From Lophium mytilinum (taxonomy: Eukaryota): 64,000 nucleotides of DNA. This document shows positions 23,744 through 24,752 of the stretch, piece after piece. Below the pieces are notes generated by a model. The model made no database searches and was not told the origin of the DNA. It saw only the letters and a program-made list of their open reading frames with translations. Location: positions 682,001 through 746,000 of the forward strand of contig MU004187.1 of the NCBI GenBank assembly GCA_010093605.1. The letters run 5' to 3'. Each line of letters starts with the position of its first letter. The first letter of the stretch is position 1. Both the position numbers and the translations under genes were made by a program.

Positions 23744-24349
23744 CCCTCTTGTCATCTCTTTAGTCGCATTTGCGCTTTCGGATTAGTTAGGTAACCTCAT
23801 CGGTATGAAGCGATAAAGCATCTTTGGTACAGTACTAGGATACAAGTTTGGGCAGAGTGTCTTTTCTATTGCGTACGGGTTATGTTAAGGTGATGGGGCA
23901 CCACAAACAGCGGCAAACGGGCTAATCGTCAGCCTGTGCAACAACCGTTTTCGACACCACGTGGTAGATGTGAAGAGTATAGTACTAAGCTAAAAGTCTA
24001 AGTATACGGACTTGCTAATATTCAGCTCCGGTCTTGTTCACTCAACATTACTAAAAGAAGCAGCCTAGGTAATCAGTAGACAGTAAGTTGAGCATCACTT
24101 CAGTTCACACGGCCTGGAACCTGACATCGTGCTAAATGTTTAGACCTCACGGGGGTACACACACAGTAATAAACAAGTACGCGTAATAAACAAGTATGCG
24201 TAGTAGGCTTCTGGCTTGTCACTGTATATAGTGCCTTTGCGCTTTCATTGCGTCCTTACACAAGAGCGGTGATGCTCGTCATCATCTCTTGAAATTTCAA
24301 AAAACGCAAAAAGAAATCCCCCTGTCGTTGCGGTTCGAACACAGGGTCC

Positions 24350-24567
24350 AAAAAAAGATTCAAGGAGCAAAAGTTCGCCGGGCAGGGCCCTACGCTACAT
24401 CTTTGTCGTGTGGAATGGCGCTCTACAGACCCAGGCTGGATTCCAACCCAGCCACGGGGGCGACTTACTAGTGCCCTGGGGGTCGGCCTGAGTCTCGGAA
24501 GACTCAGACGGACCAACCAGGCCACTGATTGCGCTATGGAGTGCCAAGGAATATTTGGAACTATATA
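24350..24567 (-). ncRNA. Candidate structured ncRNA gene with Pol III-like signals (family unidentified; strand uncertain)
   Basis: On the minus strand: TATATA 24567-24562, A-box match TAGCGCAATCAG 24536-24525, nested stems 24417-24545, T7 run 24356-24350, B-box-like GTTCGAAC 24340-24333. Confidence 0.5.
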
Positions 24568-24752
24568 CTTGAGTTGAGTCGCGCTCACATGCTAAATTGC
24601 ATTTACTTACTAAATCACGGCCATCACGCTCACTTACCAAACCACGTCCACCCGCTAGATCACGTTCACCTGTTACATCTTAATGGCTAAGCTGCACGCA
24701 CATACTTGATACCTCTACTCATCTATCTTGACGGCGACTATCTGTGTTCATA

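What the first reader, a model, noticed from the sequence alone, without database searches (positions are those of the whole stretch)
24320..24567. Unidentified highly structured intergenic element with Pol III-type signals
Seen, between two convergent genes: a 12-bp closing stem (24417-24428 with 24534-24545) enclosing a long imperfect hairpin capped by perfect CTGAGTCT-(4 nt)-AGACTCAG (24488-24507) and a second hairpin GGCTGG..CCAGCC (24434-24453). The minus strand reads TATATA (24567-24562), an A-box match TAGCGCAATCAG (24536-24525), a T7 run (24356-24350), then a B-box-like GTTCGAAC (24340-24333) inside another hairpin, with more T runs. Known: TATA + A box + downstream B box is the layout of the S. 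cerevisiae U6 gene, and Neurospora milRNA precursors are Pol III hairpins. It does not form a tRNA cloverleaf and lacks the U1/U2/U4/U5/U6, SRP and 5S signatures I can recognise. An snR30/U17 m1-like ATATTCCT precedes the stem on the minus strand, but m2 (AAACCA) is missing. Inference: a ~190-nt ncRNA, possibly unclassified. G-U pairs do not settle the strand.
Basis: partly seen in the sequence, partly recalled or inferred. Interest (0 to 1): 0.72.

Follow-up and report, generated by a model that had tools for sequence, protein, structure and literature searches.

The report
Unrecognised multicopy fungal Pol III RNA
A fungus carries four scattered copies of a small gene that is wired like its own U6 RNA genes and looks built to make a folded RNA of about 185 bases that matches no catalogued RNA family, but a separate transcript, a relative in another species and a function have not been shown.

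Summary
No Rfam or tRNA match. The element is one of four full copies plus two fragments on five contigs. Its TATA, start-proximal GCACTYC, T-run and downstream B box copy this genome's own U6 genes (GCACTYC also precedes the SRP gene). That fixes the minus strand and puts the start at about 24537. So the proposed closing stem lies mostly outside the RNA, the real A box is 24524-24513, and the 'm1' motif is chance. The inferred ~185-nt RNA has a variable 5' hairpin and a gap-free 101-nt core (80-100% identical between copies, against 43-48% in far flanks). Canonical U1, U2, U4, U6, SRP, MRP and P genes lie elsewhere. Best reading: an undescribed Pol III small RNA that works as a protein-binding scaffold. 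Rivals: a Pol III-bearing mobile cassette, a milRNA precursor, or a U6-derived splicing decoy. One public RNA run covers the family weakly, without showing a discrete transcript; no homolog was found elsewhere. The scan had not noted this sequence before, but notes other unrecognised U6-layout genes in this genome.

The parts
24582..24681 (-). Array of five to six degenerate 17-18-bp units (core AGYARGTRA) upstream of the TATA box; candidate gene-specific regulatory sites
   Evidence: Present at the C7, C6 and C18 copies and before one C9 fragment; not clustered near the U6, U4, U1, SRP, MRP or P loci held. Too degenerate for TRF. Role inferred.
24562..24567 (-). TATA box, first T at -30 from the inferred start
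   Evidence: Kept in 4 of 4 full copies at -30 to -32; same place as in this genome's U6 genes
24538..24544 (-). Start-proximal element GCACTCC (-7..-1), shared with U6 (GCACTTC) and SRP (GCACTCC) genes
   Evidence: the 30 nt before the start match U6 at 19 of 30 (C7) and 23 of 30 (C6) places and SRP at 20 of 30, without gaps
24350..24537 (-). Inferred RNA, about 185 nt, from the start to the T7 run
   Evidence: Ends inferred from the genome's U6 and SRP genes; the 16 nt after the core hairpins are invariant in 3 of 3 intact copies up to the T5-T7 run. Not mapped experimentally.
24513..24524 (-). A-box-like TGGCCTGGTTGG at +14, in the 5' arm of hairpin H1
   Evidence: Same offset as the A-box-like motif in own U6 genes; altered in C18, lost in C5; consensus recalled
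24470..24526 (-).
   Evidence: Hairpin in 4 of 4 copies (-38.1, -31.1, -21.5, -9.6 kcal/mol) at 40-91% identity
24369..24469 (-). Gap-free 101-nt conserved core; begins with invariant AGTAAGTCG (contains a 5'-splice-site hexamer)
   Evidence: 80-100% pairwise identity, no indels in 4 of 4 copies
24426..24462 (-). H2: conserved hairpin with a bulged U; its 5' arm repeats the A-box-like sequence of H1
   Evidence: 14 pairs, 1 two-sided and 2 one-sided changes keep pairing, 1 break; inner pairs have probability 0.87-1.0 in 3 copies; internal repeat D3/D5
24376..24394 (-). H3: 3' hairpin (4 firm pairs, 3 further pairs uncertain)
   Evidence: 3 one-sided changes all keep pairing; inner 4 pairs 0.85-0.92 in 3 copies, outer 3 only 0.01-0.26, none in C5
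24350..24356 (-). T7 Pol III terminator; a T4 at 24372-24369 lies before it and further T runs at 24312-24308 and 24304-24299 after it
24320..24346 (-). Downstream hairpin holding the B box (24341-24332), outside the RNA
   Evidence: B box kept in C7, C6, C18 and one C9 fragment while neighbours diverge, lost in C5; 6 of 6 U6 genes examined have the same downstream B box

Best explanation
This is a member of a small, dispersed family of RNA polymerase III genes for a stable ~185-nt RNA that no library holds. Shown: the signals, their match to the genome's U6 and SRP genes, the copies, the conserved core and its hairpins. Inferred for transcription: TFIIIC binds the internal A box and the B box beyond the terminator, places TFIIIB on the TATA box, and Pol III starts at about 24537, reads through the T4 and stops at the T7, as known for yeast SNR6; the upstream repeats may tune expression. 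Inferred for function: the RNA works as a ribonucleoprotein scaffold or decoy. The fixed-length core (H2, an A/C-rich linker, H3, oligo-U tail) binds one or more proteins, and H1 is a tolerated variable arm constrained mainly by the A box. Copies spread as DNA with their flanks and are born and lost like the genome's many snRNA genes; C5 and the C9 fragments look like decaying copies. I put a real Pol III gene at about 0.85, and a selected protein-binding RNA at about 0.5.
For: Four full copies and two 3' fragments. Core 80-100% identical without indels, H1 40-91%, far flanks 43-48%. The promoter pattern finds 11 sites, 0 with the reversed control: 8 U6 genes, 2 copies of this family, 1 other (set; the pattern was derived from these genes). 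B box downstream of the T run in 6 of 6 U6 genes and 3 of 4 full copies. 7 of the 8 base changes at paired core positions keep pairing, several as G-U on the minus strand. Fold z of the inferred RNA -4.28, -2.43, -2.77 in three copies. SNR6 mechanism from PMC5855946 (passages). An RNA run that skips three introns of the flanking genes has contigs bearing C5, C18 and C9 alleles.
Against: No discrete transcript: coverage is low (depth 5.5-20 against 169-274 on the flanking mRNAs), the contigs run on into neighbouring sequence, and none of the 7 laid records shows the window's own core alleles. No homolog outside this genome: 8 of 8 metagenome matches are unrelated. Covariation is not significant (3 distinct rows; 176 of 500 shuffles reach it), and H3 was chosen after seeing the variants. 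C7 and C6 cores are identical though their flanks are 52-62% alike, which gene conversion explains as well as selection. C5 folds no better than shuffles (z -0.13). No protein partner was tested.
Confidence: 0.5

Rival explanations
1. A ~450-bp non-autonomous mobile or passively duplicated cassette carrying Pol III signals (SINE-like or DNA-level); any RNA is a by-product and the core is kept alike by recent copying or gene conversion.
For: Dispersed copies in unrelated neighbourhoods, with fragments. C6 and C18 share flanks out to about -170 and +280 with fairly sharp ends, and C6 has an 8-bp direct repeat at those ends (11 of 500 random zone pairs do as well). Low-copy SINEs of 140-493 bp are reported in Aspergillus fumigatus (PMC5063351, abstract).
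Against: TATA, upstream repeats and B box lie outside the transcript yet travel with the copies, which retroposition cannot do. No such direct repeat in C7 or C18, no terminal inverted repeats, no simple-repeat tail. Identity is highest in the transcribed core, not uniform along the cassette.
Confidence: 0.2
2. A Pol III primary transcript for microRNA-like small RNAs: H1 is cut by Dicer or trimmed on Argonaute, and the constant core is a processing scaffold for a variable guide arm.
For: Neurospora pri-milR-1 is a ~170-nt intergenic Pol III transcript with TATA-like elements and a T cluster (PMC3547838, passages). H1 is a long hairpin of about 24 pairs in C7/C6. Unchecked scan notes describe promoter-driven repeat-spacer cassettes beside an Argonaute gene in this genome.
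Against: The long hairpin is the least conserved part and has several internal loops; H1 sequence found no target elsewhere in the genome in the DNA search (which skips weak candidates). milR-1 has no A or B box. The milR sequences are in a figure I could not see.
Confidence: 0.13
3. A U6-gene-derived RNA that modulates splicing: it keeps U6 flanks, shows a 5'-splice-site hexamer in an invariant linker, and has a U6-like 3' stretch that could titrate U1, U4 or U6-binding proteins.
For: Flanks resemble U6 flanks on both sides (23 of 30 upstream; a 13-nt exact match around the B box between C6 and one U6 gene). 18 of 22 columns align with the U6 catalytic region for C7/C6 (11 and 5 of 500 shuffles). 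The genome has at least 21 U6, 16 U1-like, 9 U2 and 6 U4 matches, with introns in U2, U4 and U6 genes.
Against: The U6 likeness is not significant for C18 or C5 (81 and 91 of 500), several targets were tried, and Rfam U6 does not hit at E<=10. No ACAGAGA box, no branch site in the core, no canonical Sm site. No conserved antisense helix to U1, U2, U4 or U6 beyond shuffled controls.
Confidence: 0.1
4. A TFIIIC-binding boundary between two convergent genes that is barely transcribed; the hairpins are incidental.
For: It sits in the 1-kb gap between convergent genes and on the same strand as the MFS 3' end, whose read-through could explain the RNA cover.
Against: A 101-nt gap-free core with pairing-compatible changes, a start element and a terminator are not needed for a boundary.
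Confidence: 0.07

Closest known systems
U6 snRNA genes of the Saccharomyces cerevisiae SNR6 type (TATA, internal A block, B block downstream of the terminator; PMC5855946, passages read), and this genome's own U6 genes
   Same: Promoter and terminator layout, TATA at -30, A box at +14, B box 15-37 nt after the start of the T run, dispersed multicopy genes
   Different: RNA about 185 nt rather than about 100; no ACAGAGA box; no Rfam U6 hit; only a weak 22-column likeness in 2 of 4 copies; an upstream repeat array that U6 loci lack
Fungal SRP RNA gene (RF01502)
   Same: Same sequence just before the start (15 identical bases between C6 and the SRP gene); Pol III T-run end
   Different: A canonical SRP gene exists on C8 (136 bits); its B box is internal; no sequence likeness in 3 of 4 copies
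Neurospora crassa milR-1 primary transcript (PMC3547838, passages read)
   Same: Intergenic Pol III hairpin RNA of similar length with TATA-like element and T cluster
   Different: milR-1 has no A or B box; here the long hairpin is the variable part; sequence comparison not possible (figure not held)
Fungal tRNA-related SINEs (AfuSINE2; PMC5063351, abstract read)
   Same: Low copy number, dispersed, Pol III signals, size range
   Different: B box lies outside the transcript; flanks are copied with the gene; target site duplication in at most 1 of 3 copies tested
Aspergillus fumigatus unclassified RNAs Afu-182, -202, -309, -336 (PMC2377427, passages read)
   Same: Intergenic structured RNAs of 130-320 nt of unassigned class in a filamentous ascomycete
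   Different: No Rfam hit of any Afu family at E<=10; those without an Rfam model were not compared

Membership tests
SNR6-type Pol III gene (promoter class) | TATA about 30 nt upstream, internal A box, T-run terminator, B box downstream | tested here: met
   complete in 3 of 4 full copies, C5 lacks A box, B box and a near T5
SNR6-type Pol III gene (promoter class) | Transcribed by Pol III as a discrete RNA | tested here: inconclusive
   Only contigs of one RNA run; low cover that runs into neighbours
U6 snRNA | ACAGAGA box and Rfam RF00026 match | tested here: not met
   Motif absent in 4 of 4; no hit; true U6 genes elsewhere
U1/U2/U4/U5 snRNAs | Family motifs (ACTTAC, GTAGTA, U5 loop; recalled) and Sm site | tested here: not met
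   Absent in 4 of 4; U1-like, U2 and U4 genes found elsewhere; U5 not searched genome-wide
SRP RNA / RNase P / RNase MRP | Rfam match and conserved boxes | tested here: not met
   No hit here; one gene of each elsewhere; alignments mostly no better than shuffles
snR30/U17 and H/ACA snoRNAs | m1 and m2 motifs inside the RNA, conserved H box, 3' ACA | tested here: not met
   m1 lies upstream of the start and in 1 of 4 copies; no H box at a shared place; 3' end is not ACA
U3 and box C/D snoRNAs | Boxes A' (TACTY), B (AGYGA), C (RTGATGA), D (CTGA) as in PMC5832005 | tested here: not met
   No C or A' box in any copy; CTGA in 2 of 4, in the variable arm
tRNA | Cloverleaf with internal B box | tested here: not met
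   ARAGORN finds none at default settings, and none over the element with introns and a lowered threshold
SINE | A and B box both inside the transcript | tested here: not met
   B box is 15-26 nt past the start of the first T5 run
SINE | Target site duplications and a simple-repeat tail | tested here: inconclusive
   8-bp direct repeat in C6 only, of 3 tested; no tail
milRNA precursor | 21-25-nt Dicer/Argonaute products | not testable with these tools
   No small-RNA or raw-read run was offered
Telomerase RNA | Template for TTAGGG repeats (recalled) | tested here: not met
   No template hexamer in 4 of 4; this organism's telomere repeat was not checked

The most novel reading that the evidence does not exclude
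A new functional class of fungal Pol III RNA, born from a U6-type gene cassette, in a lineage with greatly multiplied and intron-bearing snRNA genes: a constant core that displays a 5'-splice-site sequence and a U6-like stretch to regulate the spliceosome, or that holds a variable guide arm for a protein effector, under its own upstream repeat-driven control.
Probability: 0.15. Interest if true: 0.85.

Novelty: new variant of a known kind. Interest (0 to 1): 0.5.

Why it matters
The Pol III repertoire of fungi is usually taken as tRNA, 5S, U6, SRP RNA and a few others. A selected, multicopy, structured Pol III RNA outside these classes would widen it, and with the other unrecognised U6-layout genes noted in this genome it points to a lineage that makes new small RNAs from a reusable promoter cassette. 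The ends, strand and copies are defined well enough for a direct northern, RACE and knockout test. The shared GCACTYC start element and downstream B box also give a rule for finding more such genes. If it is a mobile cassette or a decaying by-product, the interest is modest.

Tried and rejected
Rfam at gathering score (window) and at E<=10 or 5 (region, four other copies): nothing real. Metagenome pattern scan on the 3' hairpin: 8 of 8 matches lack the rest of the element; only that one pattern was scanned, so relatives changed there would be missed. Viral contigs, one pattern: 0. No fungal genome collection was available. The run search listed one holder and none on record as RNA. Pattern with 3 mismatches: 6 family hits and 7 others, against 15 in the control. 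Antisense guide to rRNA or snRNAs: best helices no longer than controls, no sense likeness to rDNA. Intron reading of the GTAAGT: no branch site in the core. HDV-like ribozyme and a pseudoknot between the H2 loop and the linker: judged by eye, broken in C5 or C18. A recalled likeness of H2 and the following bases to a tRNA D arm and Tyr anticodon loop could not be tested: no tRNA gene was found in 400 kb fetched. A first joint-pattern test used a wrong spacing and missed the element (redone). Eight literature searches listed no description of such an RNA; subscription papers are mostly not held, and Canzler et al. 2016 was not available.

Full report
Observation. The stretch folds better than 200 of 200 shuffles on both strands (z -3.61 on -, -4.76 on +). 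It lies between a molybdopterin oxidoreductase gene on + and an MFS transporter gene on -. Rfam gives nothing at gathering score in the window and only sub-threshold noise in the region; ARAGORN finds no tRNA. The host is a fungus with a 43.4-Mb assembly in 49 contigs; earlier scan notes call it a Dothideomycete, which I did not test.

It is a family. A DNA search of the own genome found the window copy (C7), full copies on C6 (95% over 227 bases), C18 (81%) and C5 (two pieces), and a 3' fragment on C9. A pattern search added a second C9 fragment; its other 7 hits are at background level (control 15). Counts are lower bounds.

The genome's own Pol III genes fix strand and ends. There are 21 U6 matches. 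In 6 of 6 examined, a TATA box stands about 30 nt before the RNA, a T run ends it, and a B box follows 30-37 nt after the start of the run. Four of the six have GCACTTC just before the start, and the single SRP gene is preceded by GCACTCC. The new family has the same parts in the same order. The 30 bases ending in GCACTCC match U6 at 19 (C7) and 23 (C6) places and SRP at 20, without gaps. A pattern built from these genes finds 11 sites and none when reversed: 8 U6 genes, 2 family copies, 1 unrelated site; the window copy itself is missed because its TATA continues differently. The inferred start is therefore 24537 on the minus strand. The 16 bases from the T4 onward are invariant in C7, C6 and C18, so the RNA probably ends at the T5-T7 run and is about 185 nt. 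The mechanism of such a promoter is taken from yeast SNR6 (PMC5855946, passages).

Anatomy. An 11-nt 5' segment (73-100% identical), a variable hairpin H1 (40-91%), and a 101-nt core without indels (80-100%), against 43-48% in far flanks. The core opens with an invariant AGTAAGTCG, then hairpin H2, an A/C-rich linker, hairpin H3 and the tail. Of 8 base changes at paired positions, 7 keep pairing, including one two-sided change and G-C to G-U changes that fit the minus strand. With 3 distinct rows this is not significant covariation (176 of 500 shuffles), and the outer pairs of H3 have low predicted probability. The inferred RNA folds at z -4.28, -2.43 and -2.77 in C7, C6 and C18, but -0.13 in C5. 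C5 has also lost the A box, the B box and the near terminator and borders an AT-rich block, so it is probably decaying. C7, C6, C18 and one C9 fragment carry an upstream array of 17-18-bp degenerate units not clustered at the other RNA loci held. C7 and C6 have identical cores but flanks only 52-62% alike, while C6 and C18 have closer flanks (75-79%) but an 88% core: selection or gene conversion over the transcribed part.

Not a known RNA. U1-like (16, all below cut-off), U2 (9), U4 (6), U6 (21), SRP, MRP and P (1 each) genes lie elsewhere. Family motifs, partly recalled and partly from PMC5832005 (passages), are absent or not shared. A 22-column likeness to the U6 catalytic region is reached by 11 and 5 of 500 shuffles for C7 and C6 but by 81 and 91 for C18 and C5; a likeness to SRP holds for C7 only (5 of 200). 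No conserved antisense helix to rRNA or snRNAs exceeds controls.

Expression. One public run was offered. Its contigs skip three introns of the flanking genes, so it is RNA of this organism. Over the element, three contigs of depth 5.5-20 were laid. Their differing letters match the C18, C9 and C5 alleles when read. One joins the window's upstream region and H1 to a C5-type core and stops 48 bases further on, near where C5 has its first T5 run; I could not see those 48 bases, so this is a hint only. The other two are long contigs that run on, as mRNA would. No laid contig shows the window's own core alleles; contigs drop variants, so this shows nothing either way. A discrete transcript is unproven.

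Relatives. The one metagenome scan gave 8 unrelated matches, viral contigs none, and the scan's index holds no look-alike sequence. Unchecked notes describe several other unrecognised U6-layout or tRNA-derived Pol III genes in this genome; I could not compare their sequences.

How it most likely works. Pol III transcribes it from a U6-type promoter (about 0.85). The RNA most likely acts as a protein-binding scaffold or decoy, because the conserved part has fixed length and short stems and guides no RNA I could test (0.5). Rivals: a mobile or passively copied cassette (0.2; an 8-bp direct repeat flanks C6 only; SINE features from PMC5063351, abstract), a milRNA precursor (0.13; PMC3547838, passages), a U6-derived splicing regulator (0.1), a boundary element (0.07). 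Unclassified Aspergillus RNAs exist (PMC2377427, passages); those without an Rfam model were not compared, and supplements were not read.

Verdict. A real, multicopy, U6-layout Pol III gene family with an undescribed product: a new variant of a known kind, interest 0.5, held back by the lack of a shown transcript, of relatives in other species and of a tested function. Eight literature searches listed nothing describing it.

Noticed in passing
L013-L016 (U4), L058-L061 (U2), L041 and C4/C23 U6 copies: U2, U4 and some U6 genes of this genome are split by short GT-AG introns with branch-site motifs. U6 introns in fungi are known (PMC5855946); I found no listing on U4 introns.
   Followed up: partly
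G000: Large snRNA gene families (at least 21 U6, 16 U1-like, 9 U2, 6 U4), clustered on C4, C1 and C23; U1, U2 and U4 genes share a conserved downstream box.
   Followed up: partly
G000:C4:396975-397200 (L088): TATA- and B-box-bearing, tRNA-like or intron-bearing stretch that shares 14 exact bases with the 3' part of this RNA, also after a hairpin; no Rfam hit at E<=1.
   Followed up: partly
L005:1997-2160 (-), C9: Between the two C9 fragments lies another element with TATA, A-box and B-box-like motifs that ARAGORN calls only at a lowered threshold.
   Followed up: no
window 24166-24202: 17-bp tandem repeat, 2.2 copies, 95% matches, in the intergenic gap.
   Followed up: no
window 24604-24614 and L003 upstream array: Some upstream units contain TTAGTAA, which I recall as a Yap1-type bZIP site; others resemble 5' splice sites, and the RNA's invariant linker matches the unit core.
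   Followed up: no
L039 (G000:C18:789855): One site with the U6-type promoter pattern but no U6 or family sequence behind it.
   Followed up: partly
G000:C4:273682-273848: U2-like copy lacking the branch-point recognition stretch, scoring just over the cut-off.
   Followed up: no
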